Source: a virus
Lineage: Duplodnaviria > Caudoviricetes
Virus record (IMG/VR): IMGVR_UViG_3300011409_000010
Location: 1 to 37,837 of that record
Reading direction: 5' to 3' (one strand)
DNA: 37,837 bases
Within the stretch, counting starts at the first letter, position 1, and every line of letters starts with the position of its first letter. The translations under genes and the position numbers were made by a program. Under the pieces are notes generated by a model. The model was not told the DNA's origin. It saw nothing but the letters and a program-made list of their open reading frames with translations, and searched no databases. Positions 1 through 37,837 of the stretch are shown in pieces.

Positions 1-232
1 AGAATATGCAACGGAATCATATCTCGTCCCGCTGTACCGCTACATCGAGGAAGAACTCACAACGCAGTTCCTCGGTGACTTTGAGGATGATACTGAGCGC
101 CATCAATTCAGGTTTGATCTGACTGCGATACGTGCGCTGAGTGAAGATCAGGACGCGCTGTATGCGCGGCTCTCGGTGGGCTACAAAAGCGGCTGGCTGA
201 AGCGCAGCGAAGTGCGCGAGCTGGCAGGCTAC
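1..232 (+). repeat. Left copy of 232-bp imperfect terminal overlap (matches 37606-37837)
   Basis: Manual alignment: colinear, no indels, 16 substitutions. Confidence 0.97.
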
Positions 233-17635: not shown

Positions 17636-17677
17636 ACACGCTTCCCGAAGTGAGAAACGGGGGGCGTGTTTTGTTTT
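17636..17677 (+). terminator. Rho-independent terminator ending the rightward late transcript
   Basis: 12-bp stem ACACGCTTCCCG/CGGGGGGCGTGT (two G-U pairs) followed by TTTGTTTT. Confidence 0.75.
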
Positions 17678-17693
17678 GCGCTCTGTTCTATTT

Positions 17694-17938
17694 AAAGCGG
17701 CCAAAAAGCGGCCATCAATGTTTCACGTGAAACGGGGAATTGCTAATGTTGGCGGATAGTTAGGTGAGATATGCAAAACTACTCAGGATAGTACCACGGG
17801 TCTTCGATATGGGCATGTAACCTCCTTAAAGTGTGTAGTTTGTAGAGGTTCGAAGAAATGGGCGAAAACCTTAATGGCCGCATTTTGGCCGGTTTTTTTG
17901 CCCTTTTCCATTCTATGTGGCCAAAAAGCGGCCATCAA
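17694..17938. repeat. attP-like region with three pairs of integrase arm-type repeats (AAAGCGGCCA, 11-bp period)
   Basis: GGCCAAAAAGCGGCCATCAA exact at 17699-17718 and 17919-17938; inverted degenerate pair at 17875-17895; non-coding, downstream of integrase. Confidence 0.8.
17719..17734. promoter_or_regulatory. parS: parS-like palindrome TGTTTCACGTGAAACG
   Basis: 15/16 match to the bacterial parS consensus TGTTTCACGTGAAACA; intergenic. Confidence 0.8.
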
Positions 17939-17991: not shown

Positions 17992-18312
17992 TCATTTAAG
18001 CTCCTTCTCCATCGCGTCAACTTCATCACGAATGGCTCCCATCAGCAACTCACCGAGTCTCGGATCAGACATACTCCCGTACTTGCCGCTAAGTCTCACC
18101 ATTACCCGCTCCACGAATGAGCGGATGATTTGCATACTTGGCTCTTTTGGGATAATCACGGCGCCTGTGGAGTGAAAGACATAGCCTAGCGCCATCAGGT
18201 CTCGCTGCTCTTTGAGAATGGAACAGATGGCTTCAAGCATGTCTGAGTGATCTACCCATGCCTGATGCTCCACCCACGCAATCATTTCATCAATCGTTGG
18301 TTCGCTCATCAT
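17992..18312 (-). CDS. MSEPTIDEM-family framework/variable small protein, copy C
   Basis: Shares four blocks with 27832-28188 and 36292-36618; start overlaps integrase stop. Confidence 0.85.
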   Translation of the reverse strand: MMSEPTIDEMIAWVEHQAWVDHSDMLEAICSILKEQRDLMALGYVFHSTGAVIIPKEPSMQIIRSFVERVMVRLSGKYGSMSDPRLGELLMGAIRDEVDAMEKELK

Positions 18313-19364
18313 TCATTCACCGCGCGCGGGAATTGAGCAACGCGATTGCCGCTCCAGTAGCTTTCAAGGACTGACGACGCGGCGCGAAGTGCGGGCAGCG
18401 TCGAGTGCGTGTAGCGGGAAGTCATACCGCCAAGCGAATGCCCCAGCAGGTCAGCAATGATCTTCTGGTTTATCCCGGATTCGGCCAGCACCGATGCGAC
18501 CGTATGCCGAATGTCGTGAATCCTCCAGCTATCCATACCGACTACGATGCCACGGCCATGCCCTGCCGCACATACAGCCCTGTAGAACGTTGCATAGCAC
18601 AAAGGTGAGGCATTGGATCGTCTGCGCAGTAAAACTTCAAGGGTGGGCGTTATTGGAAGAATACGGGCGCTTTTAGTTTTGGTTGCGCTCGCTGGCAATC
18701 CCACGAGGCCTCGCTCCCATTCGATCCATTCAGGGCGCAGCGTCAGCAATTCCATTACGCGGCATCCGGTCAGGATCAGCATTTCGAAGATGTCGGCAGC
18801 GGCGTCCCGGTCCATCCGGCGAAGCTCATCGCGAACGGCTACCAGCTCGGCTCGAGGAACGAGAACCGCGCGACCTGGATTTGGCAAGCCGACAAGCGCG
18901 GGTGCGCGGAAGGTTTCGAGTTCAGGAAAGTAGAGGCGACCGGAATTGAGCCCCGCAACGATTCCGGCAATGGCAAACTCGATTGTTGACACTTTGAAGC
19001 TGCTCATCAGCGTTGCGCGATAAGTCGCAAGGCGGGAAACCGTCACGTCACGTACTGGCAGTTCAGGATCAATCGAAACGAAATCGGCAAAGTGGCGGAG
19101 TAGCTGGCGGCGCGATCCTGTGCTCTTGTTGATTGGATCGCGGTCGCGTGCGTCGAACAGATCCTGAAGCGTAATTACGCGGCGCTCGTATTCCGGCTCA
19201 ATCCCGATGATGCGGTTTCTGTACGCATCTTTCAAATCCCGGATGTACTCGTCGGCCTTTTCCTTTGTCTTGAATCCAGCTTGCCGGTAGCGGTTTCCGC
19301 CCACCCTGACGGAAATCGCCCACGTTGTCTTGCCTGTGCGTTTGGATAGAACTTTGTGGATCAT
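18309..19364 (-). CDS. int: Tyrosine integrase
   Basis: TGCRVMEL (R), TKTK (K), HDIRHT (HxxR), LLGH, SRY (Y); N-terminal arm-binding-like GFKTKEKA segment. Confidence 0.95.
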   Translation of the reverse strand: MIHKVLSKRTGKTTWAISVRVGGNRYRQAGFKTKEKADEYIRDLKDAYRNRIIGIEPEYERRVITLQDLFDARDRDPINKSTGSRRQLLRHFADFVSIDPELPVRDVTVSRLATYRATLMSSFKVSTIEFAIAGIVAGLNSGRLYFPELETFRAPALVGLPNPGRAVLVPRAELVAVRDELRRMDRDAAADIFEMLILTGCRVMELLTLRPEWIEWERGLVGLPASATKTKSARILPITPTLEVLLRRRSNASPLCYATFYRAVCAAGHGRGIVVGMDSWRIHDIRHTVASVLAESGINQKIIADLLGHSLGGMTSRYTHSTLPALRAASSVLESYWSGNRVAQFPRAVNE

Positions 19365-20099: not shown

Positions 20100-20411
20100 T
20101 TAGGCGACTTTGTCCGGTTCGATCATTTCAAGTATCTGACCAACAAGCCGAGCCTTGCTGAGTTTCTTTTTCTGTGCGCTATGTTCTGCGATCCGCTTCT
20201 TGACCTCTTCGAGTGTTTCGGCGAAGGTGATCGGATCCTGCATCTGTTCCTCCCGGATTATGCTGACAGCGAATTGATGCACCAGGCTCGATGGTCGCGA
20301 CCCTCGAAGCAGAGCGGCCGCCGCGAACCTGGCATAAACATCGGGAGACATCTTCACTGTGAGGAGCGACTTATCGCGTGATTTCTTTCTCACGATATTC
20401 TTAGTTTTCAA
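20100..20411 (-). CDS. Ribbon-helix-helix-like regulator, paralog 2
   Basis: LLTVKMSPDVYARFAAAALLRGSRPSSLVHQFA: alternating beta ribbon, helix, G-x-x-x-S turn, helix. Confidence 0.7.
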   Translation of the reverse strand: MKTKNIVRKKSRDKSLLTVKMSPDVYARFAAAALLRGSRPSSLVHQFAVSIIREEQMQDPITFAETLEEVKKRIAEHSAQKKKLSKARLVGQILEMIEPDKVA

Positions 20412-20670
20412 AATCTTTCATAGAATTGGATTCTGGGGGCTTCTTCCTCTTTGCACTATGTTCCGCCACTTCTCGTGCGATCTCTGGATAAATTCGCGTC
20501 CACTCCACCGGATCGCGCATCCTCTCTTCGCGACTAACCTTAACGGCAAATTGATGGACGATGCTCGACGGCGTACCTCCCAGAAGTTTTGCCGCCACCC
20601 TGAAATTGACATAATCATCCGGCTCCATCTTTACCGTTAGCGTCGCCTTGCGCCTTCTATTGGTACTCAC
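20401..20670 (-). CDS. Ribbon-helix-helix-like regulator, paralog 1 (candidate repressor)
   Basis: TLTVKMEPDDYVNFRVAAKLLGGTPSSIVHQFA; clearly homologous to 20100-20411. Confidence 0.7.
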   Translation of the reverse strand: MSTNRRRKATLTVKMEPDDYVNFRVAAKLLGGTPSSIVHQFAVKVSREERMRDPVEWTRIYPEIAREVAEHSAKRKKPPESNSMKDFEN

Positions 20671-20800
20671 AATATCTAGTATATGTCAAGACGTTTCTGT
20701 CTCCTGAGTGGGCTTCCAATCTTTACTTGACGTTTTCTAGTCAGTTAAAGTACACTTGTCAGTGTCTAGTCACTGACTATGTGATTTGTTTACACCCAAC
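20671..20800. promoter_or_regulatory. Divergent promoter/operator region with TCTAGT boxes
   Basis: Rightward TTGACG(20727)-N18-TACACT; leftward -10 TATACT (20683-20678) 7 nt before GTG; near-palindrome GTCAGTGTCTAGTCACTGAC at 20758-20777. Confidence 0.7.
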
Positions 20801-20809
20801 GGAGCCCTT

Positions 20810-20986
20810 ATGAAGCGCGAGCCCAAAACGGAAGTCATTTTCGTGAAAGCGGACAAGAGTCTTGCAAAACGTCTCCAAAAGGCGGCTTTGCTCACAGATA
20901 CAACGATGTCCGCCTTGACCAGGGAAGCCGTGCGCGAGAAGCTGGACCAGCTCGCAGAGAAATATCCTCAACTAGCGGCTGCTTAA
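20810..20986 (+). CDS. CopG/Arc-like RHH protein in the Cro position
   Basis: EVIFVKADKSLAKRLQKAALLTDTTMSALTREAV; GGAG RBS. Confidence 0.75.
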   Translation: MKREPKTEVIFVKADKSLAKRLQKAALLTDTTMSALTREAVREKLDQLAEKYPQLAAA

Positions 20987-20993
20987 AATTCAC

Positions 20994-21055
20994 TTGACAG
21001 TGTCTAGACACTCTGTATAATCAGAATGTACTAGACAACGTCTAGTCAATCTAGT
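20994..21055 (+). promoter_or_regulatory. Strong sigma70-type early promoter with operators
   Basis: TTGACA(20994)-N16-TATAAT(21016); perfect palindrome AGTGTCTAGACACT at 20999-21012; three more CTAG boxes at 21030-21055. Confidence 0.85.
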
Positions 21056-22087: not shown

Positions 22088-22897
22088 ATGGTAACGAAGG
22101 AGAAAGATAAAACAGTGTCAACTGCAATTGCAACTCAAACTGAGCACCAGGACTACGCCGCAATCATCGAACGGGTGATTGCGACAGGCGACCTGGCGAA
22201 GCTCTCAAGCGCAGATCGAATCAATTACTACAACGCAATCTGCCGTTCGGTTGGGTGGAATCCGTTAACGCAACCTCTGCAATACATCACCCTGAATGGC
22301 AAGCTCACGCTCTATGTCCGGCGCGATGGCACGGACCAGCTCCGAAAGATTCACAACGTTTCGATCCAGATCGTGAGCCGTGAGCATATCAACGACGTTT
22401 ACATCGTCACCGCCAGGGCAACCACAAAAGAAGGGCGCACCGATGAGTCGATTGGTGCCGTTTCGATTGGCAGCATCAAGGGCGACGTGCTCTGCAACGC
22501 CATCATGAAGGCTGAGACGAAGGCGAAGCGCCGAGTGACGTTGAGCGTCTGCGGGCTCGGCTTCCTGGATGAAAGCGAAATCGAAACGATTCCCGACGTT
22601 GTATTGCACGAAGCGCCGGCCATCGAAGAGGGGAAGAAGCCAAACGGCAACGGCGGCAACGGCAATGGGCGCGAGAAGCTGATCGCAACGGTGACGCGGC
22701 TCGACAATCTGATCCGCGAGATTCGCGAATACGGGCCAAAGAACTCGGACATTCAGGCGCGCATGAAGGCGCTGACTGGTGTTGAGAAGCGCGCTGATTT
22801 GAACGAAGCGCAGATGGAGATCTGCATTGAGGCGTTTGGGGATTGGGCGAATGAGCTGTATGTCACGAAGCACGGCGAAGGGGAGGATGTAGGCTAA
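22088..22897 (+). CDS. Single-strand annealing recombinase (RecT/Red-beta-like); start may be GTG 22115
   Basis: GWNPLTQP..YITLNGKLTLY...NAIMKAETKAKRRVTLSVCGLGFLDESE; adjacent to Gp157-like gene. Confidence 0.7.
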   Translation: MVTKEKDKTVSTAIATQTEHQDYAAIIERVIATGDLAKLSSADRINYYNAICRSVGWNPLTQPLQYITLNGKLTLYVRRDGTDQLRKIHNVSIQIVSREHINDVYIVTARATTKEGRTDESIGAVSIGSIKGDVLCNAIMKAETKAKRRVTLSVCGLGFLDESEIETIPDVVLHEAPAIEEGKKPNGNGGNGNGREKLIATVTRLDNLIREIREYGPKNSDIQARMKALTGVEKRADLNEAQMEICIEAFGDWANELYVTKHGEGEDVG

Positions 22898-23412: not shown

Positions 23413-24087
23413 ATGAATCCGTATTTCCAAGATGAATACGTGACGATCTACCACGGCGATTGTCGGGAGTTGCTTGATGAGATGCCGCGTGTAGATTTGG
23501 TGCTGACTGATCCGCCGTATGGAGTTCAACTTAGGAATAACGGCAGGGTGAACAACAGAAGGTCACAACGGCACTTTGATATTGTTGGTGACCACTCTCA
23601 AGAGTTAGGCCAGTACGTAATTGACTGGGCCGCAAATCAAGAAATCGCGGTGATTGCTTTCGCTAATCCGATGATGGCTTGGGAGGGTCATTGGCGTCAG
23701 TGGCTTGTCTGGAATAAAGGCCCTGCTGTTGGTGGTGGAGGCGATCGGGGCAAATGCTGGAAGCAAACGTGGGAGTTGATACAAGTAGCTCGCACTCCAG
23801 AGCTGCAAGGTAATAGGGATAGTGCTGTACTGAACTTTTATGCGACACCCCAACTTAGCGCGGAACATGTGGCCGCGAAGCCGCTAGCGCTGATTCGTTA
23901 CCTACTCGCGAAGGTTAATGCGCGTCTAGTGCTCGACCCATTCATGGGAAGCGGTACAACGTTGCGCGCAGCAAAAGACTCCGGCGTTCGCGCTATCGGA
24001 ATCGAAATCGAAGAGCGTTACTGCGAAATCGCCGCAAGGCGTATGGCGCAGCAGGTACTTCCAATCTACGAGAAGGTTGCCGGGTGA
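23413..24087 (+). CDS. Orphan beta-class N4-C/N6-A DNA methyltransferase 1
   Basis: HGDC, LTDPPYG (motif IV) precedes DPFMGSGTT (motif I); no cognate REase adjacent. Confidence 0.92.
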   Translation: MNPYFQDEYVTIYHGDCRELLDEMPRVDLVLTDPPYGVQLRNNGRVNNRRSQRHFDIVGDHSQELGQYVIDWAANQEIAVIAFANPMMAWEGHWRQWLVWNKGPAVGGGGDRGKCWKQTWELIQVARTPELQGNRDSAVLNFYATPQLSAEHVAAKPLALIRYLLAKVNARLVLDPFMGSGTTLRAAKDSGVRAIGIEIEERYCEIAARRMAQQVLPIYEKVAG

Positions 24088-27481: not shown

Positions 27482-27677
27482 CACGCCGGTGTATGGAATC
27501 TTCGAATGCTGGCAATGCACTGCGCGTCGGCCAATATTCACACCGCCAAGCGAACGGCGTGGTGGTGAGAGAGTTTGGTATTGCAGAGTGTGTAGAGCCA
27601 AGAGCAGTGTAAAGTGGCTTGATCCACGGATAACGTTTCGAGATTACCTCGAGCTGGCGAACAAGGAGGCAACGTAA
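27441..27677 (+). CDS. Small Zn-ribbon protein
   Basis: CWQC...CRVC; stop overlaps next ATG. Confidence 0.6.
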   Translation: MTDQSNDAGTFKVDTPVYGIFECWQCTARRPIFTPPSERRGGERVWYCRVCRAKSSVKWLDPRITFRDYLELANKEAT

Positions 27678-27835
27678 TGCTGGTTACAATTATTCCGATT
27701 CTGTTTGCGATACTTGGCGCGCTTGCATATGCGCTCAGTGCGAATCCGAAGATTCAGGAACTTGGCAGATTGCTGTTCGCTGCTGGTGTTTTCGCGCTTG
27801 CGTTTAATTTGGCTGGCTACAAGTTTTCACTATGA
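27677..27835 (+). CDS. Putative holin, 52 aa with two TM helices (not in ORF track)
   Basis: MLVTIIPILFAILGALAYALSANPKIQELGRLLFAAGVFALAFNLAGYKFSL; AAGGAGG RBS; two genes upstream of endolysin. Confidence 0.6.
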   Translation: MLVTIIPILFAILGALAYALSANPKIQELGRLLFAAGVFALAFNLAGYKFSL

Positions 27836-28188
27836 GCGAACCAACGATTGATGAAATGCTGGCGATAGTGGATAGCGCCATCTTTAACTGCACTCCCGAT
27901 GACGCCCCAAGGATTCGTGAAGCTATCCGCGCCATTCTCGAACAGCACCAGATGTGGTTGAAGGTAGATGAAGTCAAAGATGAACGCATTTTGCAACTCG
28001 AAGCCGAGCTTGACGGACTGGAGCGGGAATCAACCAAGAATGAACGCGCCGCGATCCGCGCATTCGTGGAGCGGGTAGAGAAGCGGCTACCGGAATACAA
28101 CACAGGCAAAGGCGCTGACTCGTGGCTAAGGGAATACCGGCAAGCTGTGCATGCAGAACTCGCCGCGATGGAAAAGGAGGCTGAGTGA
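27832..28188 (+). CDS. MSEPTIDEM-family framework/variable small protein, copy A
   Basis: Four conserved blocks; ATGA and GTGA overlaps with flanking genes. Confidence 0.88.
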   Translation: MSEPTIDEMLAIVDSAIFNCTPDDAPRIREAIRAILEQHQMWLKVDEVKDERILQLEAELDGLERESTKNERAAIRAFVERVEKRLPEYNTGKGADSWLREYRQAVHAELAAMEKEAE

Positions 28189-28757
28189 GTCACACTAACC
28201 TGGAATTATTTGAGCAGAAGATCACGCGGCGATTGAGACGCATCGAGCACATTCTGACTCGCGTAAAGACAGAGCTTCTCGATGATGCTGTACCGGATGA
28301 GCCCAGCTGCGTTGATGCTGATGGCATCGCCTTCATCACCGAGTGCGAAGGGTGCGAGCTCGACCCGTACTACGATCAGGCGGGCTACCTCACCGTTGGT
28401 GTTGGGCATCTGCTCGATGGGCCTGATGACCCGTACAATCGCACGATCACGCAGGGCGAATCCGATATGCTGCTCGAGGGCGACTTGATCGAAACGGAAG
28501 AGTGCATGGAGGAATGCGTCGCAGTTCCAGTGAATCAGAATCAGTACAACGCAATGTGCTCGCTTACGTTCAACATTGGTGTCGGTGCATTCGGTGATAG
28601 CACTCTGTTGAGGCTGCTGAATGAATCGGACTATATGGGCGCTGCGGATCAGTTCCTTGTGTGGAACAAGATCACAGTGAATGGCGAGAAAGTGGTGAGT
28701 GAGGGGTTGGCGAATCGCCGCGAGAAGGAACGCGCTTTGTTTCTCGAGGAAGTATGA
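28185..28757 (+). CDS. Endolysin, GH24 (T4/P21-type) lysozyme
   Basis: E-x8-D-x5-T triad (CEGCELDPYYDQAGYLTVGVGH), NQNQYNAMCSLTFNIG, GLANRREKERALFL. Confidence 0.93.
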   Translation: MSHTNLELFEQKITRRLRRIEHILTRVKTELLDDAVPDEPSCVDADGIAFITECEGCELDPYYDQAGYLTVGVGHLLDGPDDPYNRTITQGESDMLLEGDLIETEECMEECVAVPVNQNQYNAMCSLTFNIGVGAFGDSTLLRLLNESDYMGAADQFLVWNKITVNGEKVVSEGLANRREKERALFLEEV

Positions 28758-34504: not shown

Positions 34505-35642
34505 TGCCGGGCGTAGGGCCGGAAAAACGACACTCGCGGCTCGCGTTTCGGTGAAGAAGATGCTCGAGGGCAGGCGCGTGCTTCTCGCATCAACCACGCA
34601 GGATCAGGCCGATGCGTTCTGGGACAAAGTGAAGGCGTGGCTTTATGAAGTCACGGAGTTTGGTGTGATCGAAAAGAACGAACAACGCAGGATCATGCTG
34701 ATGCCCAACAATGGCGGGCGGATCAAGGTGAAGACTGCGAGCGATGCCGATACGCTGCGCGGCGATCATGCAGACTTCCTCGTGCTCGATGAGTGCGCGT
34801 ACCTGGCACCTGATGCGTGGGGCAAGGTGGGTGCGCCGATGCTTCTCGACAACAACGGCGATGCGTGGTTCATCTCGACACCGCGCAGACGCAACTGGTT
34901 TCACGATCTCTATCAGAAAGCAAAGAGCGATGAGACTGGGCGATGGCAGGCGTGGCATTTCACCTCCCTTGATAATCCGCACTTGTCGAGAGAGGCGCTT
35001 GATGAGATTGCGGGCGACCTGACAGATGAGGCATACCGCGAAGAGATACTTGCAGAGTTCCTTGAGGGTGAGGGGAGCGTGTTTCGAAACATTGCCGCCA
35101 ACCTGACTGCGCTGCCAGGTGCGAGCCCTGCCGATCATTGCGGTCATCGCCTCGTGATGGGAGTCGATTGGGCCATGAAATCTGACTACACAGTTCTGTG
35201 CGTTTTATGCACAGAGTGTAAGTTGGAGGTGGCGCTTGATCGCTTCAACAAGATTCAGTGGTCATTTCAGCGTGCGCGCCTTGATGCGCTTGCCAGGCGC
35301 TGGGGTGTGCAGCATATCGAAGCGGAAGAGAACTCGATTGGCTCACCCAATATCGAAGCATTGCAGCGTGAGGGATTGCCGGTCATTCCCTTCACGACTA
35401 CGGCTGCATCGAAACCGCCATTGATCCAGTCATTGATGCTTGCATTTGAGCGCAGTGAGTGCAGGTGGCTTGATGTGCCGGCGGCAACGGCAGAGTTGCA
35501 CGCATTTGAGTCGAAGGTGGCAGCGAATACGCAGCGCGTGAGCTATGCGGCACCAGAAGGCTTGCATGATGACACGGTCATTGCGCGTGCGCTTGCATGG
35601 CGTGCGGTTGTGGGTGTGCGGAACTGGGTGGTGTCAGGATGA
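34407..35642 (+). CDS. terL: Terminase large subunit
   Basis: Walker A AGRRAGKT, LRG, Walker B LVLDE, ISTP, nuclease MGVDWA...D and HDDTVIA. Confidence 0.95.
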   Translation: MIATAKELTIHLPSMHLKQAAIAKTKAKRVVINAGRRAGKTTLAARVSVKKMLEGRRVLLASTTQDQADAFWDKVKAWLYEVTEFGVIEKNEQRRIMLMPNNGGRIKVKTASDADTLRGDHADFLVLDECAYLAPDAWGKVGAPMLLDNNGDAWFISTPRRRNWFHDLYQKAKSDETGRWQAWHFTSLDNPHLSREALDEIAGDLTDEAYREEILAEFLEGEGSVFRNIAANLTALPGASPADHCGHRLVMGVDWAMKSDYTVLCVLCTECKLEVALDRFNKIQWSFQRARLDALARRWGVQHIEAEENSIGSPNIEALQREGLPVIPFTTTAASKPPLIQSLMLAFERSECRWLDVPAATAELHAFESKVAANTQRVSYAAPEGLHDDTVIARALAWRAVVGVRNWVVSG

Positions 35643-36295
35643 AACCGTATTTCGAAGATGAGTCAGTGACGATTTATCACGGCGATTGCAGAGAATTGCT
35701 AGGTGAGATGCCGCGTGTTGATCTGGTGCTGACTGATCCGCCTTATGGCATTAGTATATCTAACCGACCATCCCATCTGCGCCACTTGTTTAAATGGGAT
35801 GCACTGATAGAGCAAGCATTATTTAATCAGTTAATTACCTTTGCACCCAAAGCTATTATGTGGGGTGGAAACTACTATCACACTCCACCATCAGCCTGCT
35901 GGCTGGTATGGGATAAAGACAATACTGGTGATTTTGCAGACTGCGAATTAGCGTTCACGACTTTGCGCGGTGCGGCGCGTCTGCTTCACTATCGCTGGAA
36001 TGGATGCCTGCAAGAACCGCATGTGCCGCGTCAGGTACGCCAACACCTCACAGAGAAGCCTATACCACTGATGCGTTGGTGCGTTGGTCTCGCAAAAGAT
36101 GTGCAGACGATGATTGATCCGTTTATGGGCGGCGGTACTTCACTTCGTGCCGCGAAGGATTGCGGAATCAAGGCAATCGGAATCGAGATCGAGGAGCGGT
36201 ACTGCGAGATTGCCGCACGGCGGATGGCGCAACAGGTACTGGAGTTTGAACCGCAACCGCAACCAGTACCACAGCAGATGAGCATGACCGGATGA
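35639..36295 (+). CDS. Orphan beta-class DNA methyltransferase 2
   Basis: LTDPPYG...WDK...HLTEKP...DPFMGGGTS; termini closely match MTase 1. Confidence 0.92.
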   Translation: MKPYFEDESVTIYHGDCRELLGEMPRVDLVLTDPPYGISISNRPSHLRHLFKWDALIEQALFNQLITFAPKAIMWGGNYYHTPPSACWLVWDKDNTGDFADCELAFTTLRGAARLLHYRWNGCLQEPHVPRQVRQHLTEKPIPLMRWCVGLAKDVQTMIDPFMGGGTSLRAAKDCGIKAIGIEIEERYCEIAARRMAQQVLEFEPQPQPVPQQMSMTG

Positions 36296-36618
36296 GTAAA
36301 CCAACGATTGATGAAATGCTGTATTGGGTGGATCGTTTCGAGATTAATGCGAAAGAACGCGGTCTTGCTGTCGACGATTACGATCTCGCTAATGTCGAAG
36401 CCATCCGAGCCATTCTCGAACAGCACCGGAAGCCATTCGCTGAACCCACGATGAAAGAGGCAATGGGGCATATGAAAGCCATCAAACTCGAAGCTGTACG
36501 CGATTTCGTGCAGCGGGTCGAGAAGCGCATAGAGCACGAACAGCCCTATCAGGAAGTGGACTACAGCAGGAACGCAATGCATGCAGAACTCGCCGCGATG
36601 GAAATAGATGGCCAATAA
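36292..36618 (+). CDS. MSEPTIDEM-family framework/variable small protein, copy B
   Basis: Four conserved blocks; ATGA overlap with MTase 2; 3' end overlaps portal start. Confidence 0.88.
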   Translation: MSKPTIDEMLYWVDRFEINAKERGLAVDDYDLANVEAIRAILEQHRKPFAEPTMKEAMGHMKAIKLEAVRDFVQRVEKRIEHEQPYQEVDYSRNAMHAELAAMEIDGQ

Positions 36619-37837
36619 GGAAACATCCCTAATTCGCCGTAGCATCCAGGCACTCGCCAGCCTGAAGGACGCCATGCGCTTTCCAAGTCAGGGCGGCACT
36701 GCTGGCAGTTCCGGGATTGTGTGGAACGTGCTCAGTGATGCGTGGAACGGCTACGGCTACAGCGGCAAGAATATCGACTACACAGCAGAAGCGGGCAGCA
36801 TAGGCGGTGCATCGCTCGTAATGGCGGCAGTTAACTGGCTCGGTCGTGTGCTCCCTGAAGCACCACTGAATGTAGTTGAACTCGACGAAGATGGGATGGA
36901 GCAGGTCATTCCAGGCCATCCGGCAGCCAAGCTCCTGCGCAGACCCAATCTCTACTACTCAGGCACAACACTGCTCAAGGCATTCGCATACTCGTGGATC
37001 GTGAGCGGCAATCCGTATGTGCTCAAGGTGCGGAATGGCGGCAGTCGCGTGACTGAACTCTGGTATGTGCCACCGCATATGATGCGTCCATTGTGGCCGC
37101 AGAGCGGGAGCGAGTTCATCACAGGCTACGAGTACAAGGTAGACGGCGCCACGCAGACCTTCGAACAGGAAGACGTGATCCACTTCCGGGATGGTATCGA
37201 CCCGATGAACACGCGCATGGGGCTCAGCCCGGTAGCAAGCGTGATGCGCGAAGTGTACACAGACAATGAGATTGCCAATTACAGCGCACTGCTGATGAAG
37301 AATGGCGCAGTGCCGCCTGTGGTGATCAGCCTCAAAGAGAACGTGAACGCATATCAGTTTGATCCAAATGATGTGCGTGAGAAGTACCTGCGGCAGACGC
37401 AAGGTGATCAGAGAGGGAAAGCGTGGGTGAGCGGGGCAGCTGTGAATGTCGAGAAGGTGGGCTTCAGCCCGAATGATCTCAACCTGGCACAGCTTCGCCG
37501 GCTCCCGGAAGAGCGCCTCTCGGCAGTCATTGGCATACCAGCGATTGTGCTGGGATACGGGGCGGGACTCGACAAAGCGACTTACTCTAATGCCCGTCAA
37601 CTGGTAGAATACGCAACGGAGTCTTATCTCGTCCCACTGTACCGCTACATCGAGGAAGAACTCACGACGCAGTTCCTTGGTGACTTTGAGGATGATACTG
37701 AGCGCCACCAATTCAGGTTTGATCTGACTGCGATACGAGCACTGAGTGAGGATCAGGATGCGCTCTATGCGCGGCTCTCGGTGGGTTATAAAAGCGGCTG
37801 GCTGAAGCGCAGTGAAGTGCGTGAGCTGGCAGGCTAC
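36608..37837 (+). CDS. HK97-family portal protein, N-terminal 410 codons (about 490 aa when circularised)
   Basis: HPAAKLLRRPN, SGNPY, ELWYVPP, DVIHFRD, GLSPV, NGAVPP, GIPAIVLG, TYSNA; open to window end. Confidence 0.95.
   Translation, partial: MANKETSLIRRSIQALASLKDAMRFPSQGGTAGSSGIVWNVLSDAWNGYGYSGKNIDYTAEAGSIGGASLVMAAVNWLGRVLPEAPLNVVELDEDGMEQVIPGHPAAKLLRRPNLYYSGTTLLKAFAYSWIVSGNPYVLKVRNGGSRVTELWYVPPHMMRPLWPQSGSEFITGYEYKVDGATQTFEQEDVIHFRDGIDPMNTRMGLSPVASVMREVYTDNEIANYSALLMKNGAVPPVVISLKENVNAYQFDPNDVREKYLRQTQGDQRGKAWVSGAAVNVEKVGFSPNDLNLAQLRRLPEERLSAVIGIPAIVLGYGAGLDKATYSNARQLVEYATESYLVPLYRYIEEELTTQFLGDFEDDTERHQFRFDLTAIRALSEDQDALYARLSVGYKSGWLKRSEVRELAGY
37606..37837 (+). repeat. Right copy of 232-bp imperfect terminal overlap
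   Basis: Matches 1-232 with 16 substitutions. Confidence 0.97.

What the first reader, a model, noticed from the sequence alone, without database searches (positions are those of the whole stretch)
27832..28188. Dispersed three-copy gene family with fixed framework blocks and hypervariable inserts: candidate segment-shuffling system
Seen: ORFs A (27832-28188 +), B (36292-36618 +) and C (17992-18312 -) share four short blocks in the same order: MS(E/K)PTIDEM, EAI(R/C)(A/S)IL(E/K)(Q/E), (I/V)R.FV(E/Q)RV..R and A...E(L/V).AME. The three intervening segments differ in length and cannot be aligned. The blocks match at DNA level including wobble positions. ATGAGCGAACCAACGATTGATGAAATG (27 nt) is identical in A and C; AACCAACGATTGATGAAATGCTG (23 nt), GCCATTCTCGAACAGCACC (19 nt; 27931/36409) and TGCATGCAGAACTCGCCGCGATGGAAA (27 nt; 28148/36578) are identical in A and B. 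Inference: uniform divergence would not leave synonymous-site identity beside unalignable segments. The blocks may be microhomology handles through which the phage's own annealing recombinase swaps variable segments on a helical scaffold, giving a diversifying family (possibly anti-defence or host-interaction). I do not recognise this family; function is unknown.
Basis: partly seen in the sequence, partly recalled or inferred. Interest (0 to 1): 0.85.

Follow-up and report, generated by a model that had tools for sequence, protein, structure and literature searches.

The report
Cassette-shuffled mini-proteins in temperate phages
A temperate phage carries three scattered copies of an unnamed small gene whose three variable segments recur in new combinations among about 140 relatives, likely swapped by recombination within four short conserved DNA blocks, giving a natural protein library that is predicted to dimerise and probably binds still-unknown host targets.

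Summary
Observation confirmed. A, B and C belong to an unnamed family (205 HMM hits, no Pfam/PHROG/NCBIfam match) found only in one group of temperate phages. Four blocks frame three variable segments with about 100 alleles each. Segments reassort: of 101 protein pairs sharing segment 1, only 15 share segment 2. Two relatives differ by a clean swap of segment 2 between flanks that are 97-100% identical. Near-identical segments occur at different genomic sites. B is a three-way mosaic of segments seen in three other proteins. Synonymous divergence is halved in blocks 1-3 (dS 0.41-0.46 vs 0.96 in core genes), not abolished. Segments are under purifying selection (pN/pS 0.21-0.31), so the protein matters. 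Copies slot into ATGA stop/start overlaps at five genomic sites; one empty/filled pair shows precise insertion. Models give a helical protein, predicted (borderline) to form a parallel dimer. Inferred, not shown: exchange by the phage's Rad52/RecT-like protein, and a host-binding role. Host unknown. It works like gp38 adhesin or HsdS segment shuffling but is neither. This scan reported the same kind of system in eight notes on other genomes, mostly as arrays; none matched this sequence.

The parts
27832..28188 (+). Copy A (118 aa), between a holin-like gene and a lysozyme, with 4-nt overlaps at both ends. Segment 1 is shared with P0006 and P0008 (82%); segment 3 is the commonest allele (80% to P0002-P0005); segment 2 has no relative and is coiled-coil-like.
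27832..27861 (+). A block 1 (MSEPTIDEML)
27922..27951 (+). A block 2 (AIRAILEQH)
28051..28086 (+). A block 3 (AIRAFVERVEKR)
28156..28179 (+). A block 4 (ELAAMEKE); holds a Shine-Dalgarno-like AAGGAGG just upstream of the lysozyme start (role inferred)
36292..36618 (+). Copy B (108 aa), between a DNA methyltransferase and the portal start (36608). Three-way mosaic: segment 1 like P0096 (61%), segment 2 like P0080 (89%), segment 3 like P0035 (69%). Each partner is unrelated in the other two segments. Blocks at 36292-36321, 36400-36429, 36493-36528, 36586-36609.
17992..18309 (-). Copy C (105 aa from the conserved ATG), directly after the integrase. Segment 2 like P0086 (62%), segment 3 like P0089 (80%). 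Blocks at 18280-18309, 18202-18231, 18094-18129, 18001-18024.
22088..22897 (+). Likely single-strand annealing protein (Rad52/RecT superfamily) beside a Gp157 gene; candidate agent of exchange (inferred)
   Evidence: Pfam Rad52_Rad22 E=0.015, below the cut-off; protein-language-model neighbours Rad52 0.93 and RecT 0.91
27677..27835 (+). Small membrane gene, holin-like (weak); upstream partner at the commonest insertion site
   Evidence: Pfam Phage_holin_2 E=0.089
28185..28757 (+). Lysozyme, downstream partner of A; optional at this site in relatives
35639..36295 (+). N4/N6 DNA methyltransferase. It sits with B at the terminase-stop/portal-start overlap, where six loci of relatives have nothing.
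18309..19364 (-). Tyrosine integrase, upstream partner of C

Best explanation
A, B and C are copies of an unnamed family of small acidic proteins of one temperate-phage group, whose three variable segments occur in reassorted combinations, likely exchanged as whole in-frame cassettes by short-homology recombination inside four DNA-conserved blocks, probably by the phage's Rad52/RecT-like annealing protein, to vary what is predicted to be a dimeric helical binder that likely targets host proteins. SHOWN: four-block architecture; reassortment; movement of segments between genomic sites; reduced dS in blocks 1-3; purifying selection inside segments; insertion of whole genes at ATGA overlaps. INFERRED: exchange happens mostly between genomes (co-infection, or phage with prophage) or as patch-type double crossovers, because a single A-B crossover would delete 8.4 kb including the terminase and a single A-C crossover would invert 9.5 kb. 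Repeated crossing over homogenises the blocks and keeps them usable. The blocks form the helical core and dimer contacts, segment 2 is a variable-length stalk, and segments 1 and 3 are exposed loops at the two ends. Block 4 supplies the next gene's ribosome-binding site, so a new copy does not uncouple an operon. GUESSED: the allele pool is kept by frequency-dependent selection against host proteins (counter-defence or host takeover). My odds: reassortment among family members about 0.9; phage annealase as agent about 0.6; host-binding arms-race function about 0.4.
For: (1) Among 143 four-block proteins (61 of 204 distinct dropped for lacking a block) there are 99, 103 and 96 alleles. Pairs sharing V1 also share V2 in 15 of 101; pairs sharing V2 share V3 in 20 of 73. 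105 of 143 proteins have a partner sharing one or two but not all segments. (2) One six-edge V1-V2 cycle and one V1-V3 four-gamete quartet, which clonal descent cannot give. (3) L055 vs L063: upstream 99%, V1 100%, V2 40%, V3 97%. (4) Cross-site sharing: V1 100% between a recombinase-site and a lysis-site copy; V3 96% between a lysis-site and a recombinase-site copy. (5) Synonymous codon identity is 0.76 in blocks vs 0.60 in 113 core ortholog pairs, and higher in 20 of 23 loci. Controls: first 12 codons of core genes 0.68; fully conserved 10-residue windows 0.64. dS is 0.41-0.46 in blocks 1-3, 0.96 in core genes and 1.03 in the commonest V3 allele. (6) pN/pS in segments chosen on DNA identity alone is 0.21, 0.26 and 0.31, vs 0.23 in core genes. 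(7) ATGA/GTGA overlaps at 38 of 44 starts and 36 of 49 ends; an SD-like motif before 28 of those 36 ends; L075 is empty and L069 filled at a shared 8-nt junction. (8) AlphaFold2 gives a helix-loop-long helix-loop-helix model, pLDDT 94. Homodimer of A scores 0.42, best of 3 controls 0.00; that mark was reached by 20 of 30 solved homodimers and 1 of 23 single chains; runs agree in at least 69% of contacts, pLDDT at least 68; residues of blocks 1-3 and the helix leading into block 4 are at the interface. (9) All 143 proteins are net acidic (median -7), vs 17 of 34 other small proteins of the window. (10) Relatives carry a whole WDGH domain as V2 (P0012) or a Lar restriction-alleviation domain joined to blocks 3-4 (P0028).
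Against: Only two graph cycles were found, each depends on the clustering threshold, and there is none for V2-V3. The protein lists are cluster representatives at 90% and 50% identity, which removes pairs sharing all segments and inflates apparent reassortment. Linkage is still well above background (15% vs 0.7%). Exact shared runs have medians of 12-17 nt and reach 20 nt in only 15-39% of pairs, below the 23-27 bp quoted for Red-beta (PMC3945230, passage). Block 4 dS is 0.79. dS values come from non-independent pairs. No recombinant among A, B and C appears in run X1's contigs (contigs drop rare variants). The annealase assignment is below Pfam's cut-off (4 of 42 relatives match weakly). The dimer score sits exactly at the pass mark, and many of its best contacts lie in A's own coiled-coil V2. 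No function, target or host was found. The gene is dispensable at the lysis site (absent in 4 of 13 loci fetched through a neighbouring gene).
Confidence: 0.62

Rival explanations
1. Passive mosaic: the protein has a generic or weak role (for example a soluble, translationally coupled passenger). The blocks are conserved for folding; crossovers fall there only because nothing else aligns, and low dS is a by-product. The diversity is not adaptive.
For: The gene is optional. It sits in operons of unrelated function. Two-block, internally duplicated and fused forms are common (13 of 54 copies in loci lack a block). dS is only halved.
Against: Segments are as constrained as core genes (pN/pS 0.21-0.31 vs 0.23). 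About 100 distinct, individually conserved alleles per slot is more than a spacer needs. No decayed copies were found outside the called genes.
Confidence: 0.24
2. Segments are captured one at a time from unrelated DNA by illegitimate recombination, and are not exchanged among family members.
For: 77-81 alleles per slot were seen only once. Whole foreign domains occur as inserts. L019 fuses blocks 1-3 to a lysozyme C-terminus.
Against: Near-identical alleles recur in family genes at other sites, and graph cycles exist. No donor was found in 392 kb of related phage DNA with the family genes masked. Capture may explain where alleles first came from, not their spread.
Confidence: 0.06
3. The mosaics are metagenome assembly chimeras formed at 20-30-nt repeats.
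For: All data are metagenomic contigs, and the blocks are near common k-mer lengths.
Against: Shared alleles differ at synonymous sites (dS about 0.7). Several genes recur letter for letter in contigs of different length and data-set id (these may be re-assemblies of the same reads). A separately assembled contig spans A without a difference. Blocks plus a segment are shorter than a typical read.
Confidence: 0.04
4. Codon fixation in the blocks reflects an overlapping nucleic-acid signal (RNA hairpin, protein-binding site or Chi-like motif), not homogenisation.
For: The block 3 consensus folds an 8-bp hairpin (-14.4 kcal/mol; 3.8% of synonymous recodings fold as well). Block 1 is a translation start and block 4 holds a ribosome-binding-like motif.
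Against: No compensatory changes: the outer pairs are broken in 15 and 22 of 49 sequences, and only 5 of 50 real block-3 sequences reach z<-1.65. Block 2 is less structured than its recodings. The blocks do not occur outside the family.
Confidence: 0.04

Closest known systems
gp38 adhesins of T2/T6-type phages (PMC3157838, passages read)
   Same: Hypervariable segments separated by conserved motifs that form the structural core; exchanges reported within or near the conserved motifs.
   Different: gp38 is one virion gene at the tail-fibre tip with glycine-rich motifs and a restricted, largely co-inherited palette of segments. Here the gene is multi-copy, dispersed, helical, optional, has about 100 alleles per slot and no sequence or fold match.
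Type I restriction specificity subunit HsdS (PMC12707154, passages read)
   Same: Variable domains joined by conserved helical regions; recombination among modules gives combinatorial variants.
   Different: HsdS target-recognition domains are large DNA-binding domains working with HsdM and HsdR. Segments here are mostly 10-35 residues, and A, B and C have no Pfam match.
Temperate-phage mosaicism driven by Rad52-like recombinases (PMC3945230, passages read); phage domain shuffling (PMC10684548, abstract and outline only)
   Same: Exchange of small gene fragments bounded by short, partly identical homology; the phage likely encodes such an enzyme.
   Different: Here the homology tracts are fixed, recur inside one 300-nt gene and define three slots. 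In the abstract read, the shuffling is of domains in receptor-binding, lysis and replication proteins.
Ead/Ea22/Lar mosaic accessory proteins of lambdoid phages (recalled; no call describes them)
   Same: Small modular phage proteins with swappable pieces; one relative carries a Lar domain.
   Different: A, B and C match no such Pfam or PHROG family and are not confined to one early region.
Cassette-shuffled small-protein families noted earlier by this scan (unchecked AI notes)
   Same: Three or four DNA-conserved blocks framing swapped segments in small phage proteins of unknown function.
   Different: No sequence match to this family. Most of those notes describe arrays in T4-like, cyanophage or jumbo phages; this one is dispersed through core operons of a temperate phage at ATGA overlaps.

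Membership tests
gp38 adhesin | Glycine-rich conserved motifs | tested here: not met
   Block consensus residues hold no glycine and are predicted helical
gp38 adhesin | Encoded beside the tail-fibre gene; virion tip protein | tested here: not met
   Sites: lysis 30, integrase 6, recombinase 6, terminase-portal 3, head-tail 1, of 46 assigned copies
gp38 adhesin | Variable segments between conserved motifs, exchanged by recombination | tested here: met
   (works like it)
gp38 adhesin | Receptor binding | not testable with these tools
   needs an assay
Diversity-generating retroelement | Reverse transcriptase gene | tested here: not met
   No RVT_1 match in G000, estimated 97% complete
Diversity-generating retroelement | Template and variable repeats colinear, differing at adenines | tested here: not met
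   Segments differ in length and do not align; 29 of 71 block mismatches involve no A
Invertase/shufflon systems | Dedicated site-specific recombinase acting on one repeated crossover site | tested here: not met
   No resolvase/invertase. Four different blocks at 79-90% DNA identity. The only tyrosine recombinase found looks like the prophage integrase.
Type I HsdS | Target-recognition domains with HsdM/HsdR partners | tested here: not met
   No Pfam, NCBIfam or consistent PADLOC match
Ead/Ea22/Lar accessory proteins | Profile match to those families | tested here: not met
   None for A, B or C; Lar only in relative P0028
Rad52/Sak/RecT annealing proteins (gene 22088-22897) | Profile match above the curated cut-off | tested here: inconclusive
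   15.7 bits vs cut-off 20.3; best relative E=0.0012; language-model neighbours Rad52 0.93 and RecT 0.91; no credible PDB sequence match
Any solved or predicted fold | Significant structural match | tested here: inconclusive
   Foldseek: none at E<=0.001; VIA-align best Z 6.3, rmsd 7.2, 116 aligned, generic helices

The most novel reading that the evidence does not exclude
The family is a self-renewing combinatorial binder library of temperate phages. A dimeric helical scaffold has three slots drawing on hundreds of alleles each (Chao1 about 300-420; likely inflated by clustering), reshuffled by plain annealing recombination and able to drop new copies into any operon at ATGA overlaps without breaking translation. 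Heterodimers among copies would add more combinations, and the library would be used to neutralise changing host defence proteins: an RT-free counterpart of diversity-generating retroelements.
Probability: 0.3. Interest if true: 0.85.

Novelty: new variant of a known kind. Interest (0 to 1): 0.56.

Why it matters
It shows sub-gene modularity at the scale of 10-35 residues in a 100-residue phage protein, with direct DNA evidence of recent swaps and of precise gene insertion at stop/start overlaps. That makes two old questions testable in one small gene: whether phages keep short linker homologies for recombination, and how accessory genes enter tightly coupled operons. If the alleles bind different host proteins, the family is a source of counter-defence proteins and a natural mini-binder scaffold. 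Interest is tempered because the principle is known (gp38, HsdS), this scan has noted other families of the kind, and function and host are unknown.

Tried and rejected
Pfam, PHROGs and NCBIfam: no match above cut-off for A, B or C. PADLOC: eight scattered single-member hits among 90 members, none consistent. Fold searches: nothing significant; ESM Atlas: only unnamed clusters at 0.89. Cultured phages: one weak hit, E=0.3. Host: two GTDB scans (the family, and a group-specific neighbour gene) found no relative. RNA hairpin in block 3: no covariation, rejected. DGR and invertase models: rejected. Donors of segments in non-family DNA: none in 392 kb; the one strong hit was a family gene's own unmasked N-terminus. 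Blocks as genome-wide linkers in other genes: one clear block-1 match (L071) and one chance-like match. Four-gamete test at the 55% threshold: 0 quartets; cycles appeared only as listed. Allele sharing between copies on one contig: 0 of 32 comparisons, uninformative because about 1 is expected. Sequencing runs: no RNA holder listed. Family genes in other phages with a similar annealase: 0 of 79 loci L080-L158. A Chi-like reading of block 3 (motifs recalled) could not be tested without a host. Literature: ten full-text searches listed no paper on this family; an unnamed family is hard to find by words, most subscription papers are not searched, I opened no supplements, and bioRxiv supplements are closed.

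Full report
SETTING. The window is the whole 37,837-base record G000, a virus record estimated 97% complete. It has an HK97-type capsid, protease and portal, a GTA-type tail, a tyrosine integrase, a lysozyme and two DNA methyltransferases, so it is a temperate siphovirus-like phage (inferred). No relative was found in GTDB genomes, so the host is unknown.

OBSERVATION. The three ORFs, the four blocks and all four exact DNA strings are as described. Chance gives at most about 0.01 such repeats. Synonymous codons in the blocks agree in 24 of 29, 19 of 22 and 15 of 19 cases, against 10.7, 8.5 and 6.7 expected. The segments between blocks are no more alike than codon-shuffled controls.

FAMILY. 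phmmer gave 77 proteins. A profile search of 1.84 billion representatives gave 205 at E<=0.001, of which 150 were listed. Loci: 19 viral, 18 pattern matches in largely the same contigs and 38 metagenomic (L053 is the window itself). They held 58 distinct hits, four of which I set aside as distant or doubtful (g15, g18, g28, g57). Of the 54 kept, 41 have all four blocks, 7 blocks 3-4, 4 blocks 1-2 (three of these are cut by contig ends) and 2 three blocks. Nothing matches A, B or C in Pfam, PHROGs or NCBIfam above cut-off. The family was found only in relatives of this phage; 0 of 79 loci fetched through the annealase of other phages carry it.

REASSORTMENT. Of 204 distinct proteins, 143 had four recognisable blocks and 61 were dropped. 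At 55% identity (shuffled null maximum 47%) they fall into 99, 103 and 96 alleles. Pairs sharing V1 share V2 in 15 of 101 and V3 in 31 of 101; pairs sharing V2 share V3 in 20 of 73. By number of shared alleles, 451 pairs share one, 39 two and 9 all three. These lists are cluster representatives, which thins the all-three class. The allele graphs contain one six-edge V1-V2 cycle (threshold 55%) and one V1-V3 four-gamete quartet (75% and 85%), and none for V2-V3; free shuffling predicts 0.1-2 per test and clonal descent none. DNA shows clean cases. L055 and L063 are 99% identical upstream, 100% in V1 and 97% in V3, but 40% in V2. The L017 gene has V2 identical to L055's and V3 96% identical to a gene at another site in L057. 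Twelve cross-site allele pairs were found. In the window, each of B's three segments and two each of A's and C's have a relative in a protein that is unrelated in the other segments. Contigs from three other runs match A only in blocks and then run into other sequence.

DNA CONSTRAINT. Across 46-50 copies per block, same-residue codons are identical in 72-77% of comparisons vs 35-40% from codon usage. Core orthologs between the window and the same phages give 60% (113 gene pairs), and blocks exceed core in 20 of 23 loci. Gene starts give 68% and fully conserved core windows 64%. dS is 0.41, 0.46, 0.44 and 0.79 for blocks 1-4, 0.96 for core genes and 1.03 within the commonest V3 allele. So the reduction is real for blocks 1-3 but is a halving, not a collapse. 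Exact shared runs have medians of 12-17 nt, shorter than the 23-27 bp minimal segment quoted for Red-beta (PMC3945230, passage), though 15-39% of pairs reach 20 nt. A block-3 hairpin lacks covariation.

SELECTION ON THE PROTEIN. Same-length segment pairs chosen on DNA identity only, counted on a spanning tree (16, 5 and 15 edges), have pN/pS 0.21, 0.26 and 0.31, each p<1e-4 against neutrality; core genes give 0.23. The segments have protein-like composition in frame and stops in the other frames. All 143 proteins are net acidic, vs 17 of 34 other small window proteins.

GENOMIC BEHAVIOUR. Of 46 copies with an assignable site, 30 lie in the holin-like/lysozyme/endonuclease interval, 6 after the integrase, 6 near the annealase, 3 between terminase and portal, and 1 among head-tail genes. 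Ten of 42 locus groups hold two or three copies. Starts overlap an upstream stop in 38 of 44 copies and ends overlap a downstream start in 36 of 49; 28 of those 36 carry an SD-like motif just upstream. L075 lacks the gene where L069 has it, with the same 8-nt stop/start junction on both sides of the insert. Six loci join terminase directly to portal where the window has methyltransferase plus B. The lysis-site copy is absent in 4 of 13 loci fetched through a neighbouring gene.

STRUCTURE. AlphaFold2 gives helix 6-15, a loop, helix 24-85, a loop and helix 95-117 for A (pLDDT 94, pTM 0.56), and a hairpin plus one long helix for a short member. No fold match stands out. Two copies of A score 0.42 against a best control of 0.00; that mark was reached by 20 of 30 solved homodimers and 1 of 23 single chains; runs agree in at least 69% of contacts, with pLDDT at least 68. 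The contacts are parallel and include residues of blocks 1-3, the helix leading into block 4, and the heptads of A's V2. This supports but does not show a dimer, and it may lean on A's own coiled coil.

MECHANISM. Shown: slots, reassortment, cross-site movement, constraint on blocks and on segments, insertion at overlaps. Inferred: exchange by short-homology annealing, most plausibly by gene 22088-22897, a likely Rad52/RecT relative. It should run mainly between genomes, because single crossovers within this genome would delete the terminase (A-B) or invert 9.5 kb (A-C), as the coordinates show. No reverse transcriptase or invertase is present. Guessed: a dimeric binder whose loops meet host proteins. 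Hints are the allele number, the purifying selection within alleles, the acidity and the Lar and WDGH domains captured in relatives. The main rival is a passive mosaic with a generic role.

COMPARISON AND VERDICT. It works like gp38 adhesins (PMC3157838, passages) and HsdS (PMC12707154, passages), and fits Rad52-type mosaicism (PMC3945230, passages) and phage domain shuffling (PMC10684548, abstract and outline). It fails the defining features of gp38, HsdS, DGRs and shufflons. Ten searches listed no paper on this family. This scan has eight unchecked notes on the same kind of system in other genomes, none matching by sequence and none found for a dispersed temperate-phage form. Verdict: real, a new variant of a known kind, interest 0.56.

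Noticed in passing
window 1-232 and 37606-37837: Terminal direct repeat at 93% identity. The portal gene starts at 36608 and appears to wrap round the ends, so the contig is likely circular with strain variants at the overlap.
   Followed up: partly
window 23413-24087 and 35639-36295: Two paralogous N4/N6 DNA methyltransferases with similar ends (110 nt at 85%, 130 nt at 75%) and a divergent middle; synonymous identity is high only in patches.
   Followed up: partly
window 28185-28757; L019:308-664: The lysozyme is present in only 7 of 17 loci spanning the holin-like to endonuclease interval. In L019 a family gene is fused in frame to the lysozyme's last residues.
   Followed up: partly
window 20745-20774, 20983-21012, 21021-21050: Three related 30-nt repeats flanking a ribbon-helix-helix gene (20786-20986), likely operators of the lysis-lysogeny switch. 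Two paralogous small genes (20100-20411, 20401-20670; 51% identical) lie beside them.
   Followed up: no
window 17674-17718 and 17894-17938: 45-nt repeats (80%) just past copy C and the integrase, likely attP arm sites.
   Followed up: no
L069:7562-8098 (P0012); P0028; P0130: Whole foreign domains in family genes: WDGH (PF25311) as segment 2, Lar (PF14354) replacing blocks 1-2, and phrog_2864 as an N-terminal extension.
   Followed up: partly
blocks 2 and 3, e.g. window 27922-27951 and 28051-28086: Blocks 2 and 3 begin with the same AIRA peptide and near-identical DNA, suggesting an old internal duplication. Several relatives join block 1 almost directly to block 3 (P0149, P0152, P0025).
   Followed up: no
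13 of 179 listed proteins: C-termini read as the overlap of a following block 1 in another frame, marking tandem copies not seen as loci.
   Followed up: partly
window 22088-22897: Abundant phage protein family (473 confirmed relatives among the 600 stretches examined before the viral scan stopped at its limit) with no PHROG and only weak Rad52 hits; a likely under-annotated annealase clade.
   Followed up: partly
L040:3062-3298; L016:10866-11192; L071:7327-7791: Distant genes with only a block-1/block-2-like hairpin or block 1; possible ancestors or derivatives, left out of the counts.
   Followed up: no
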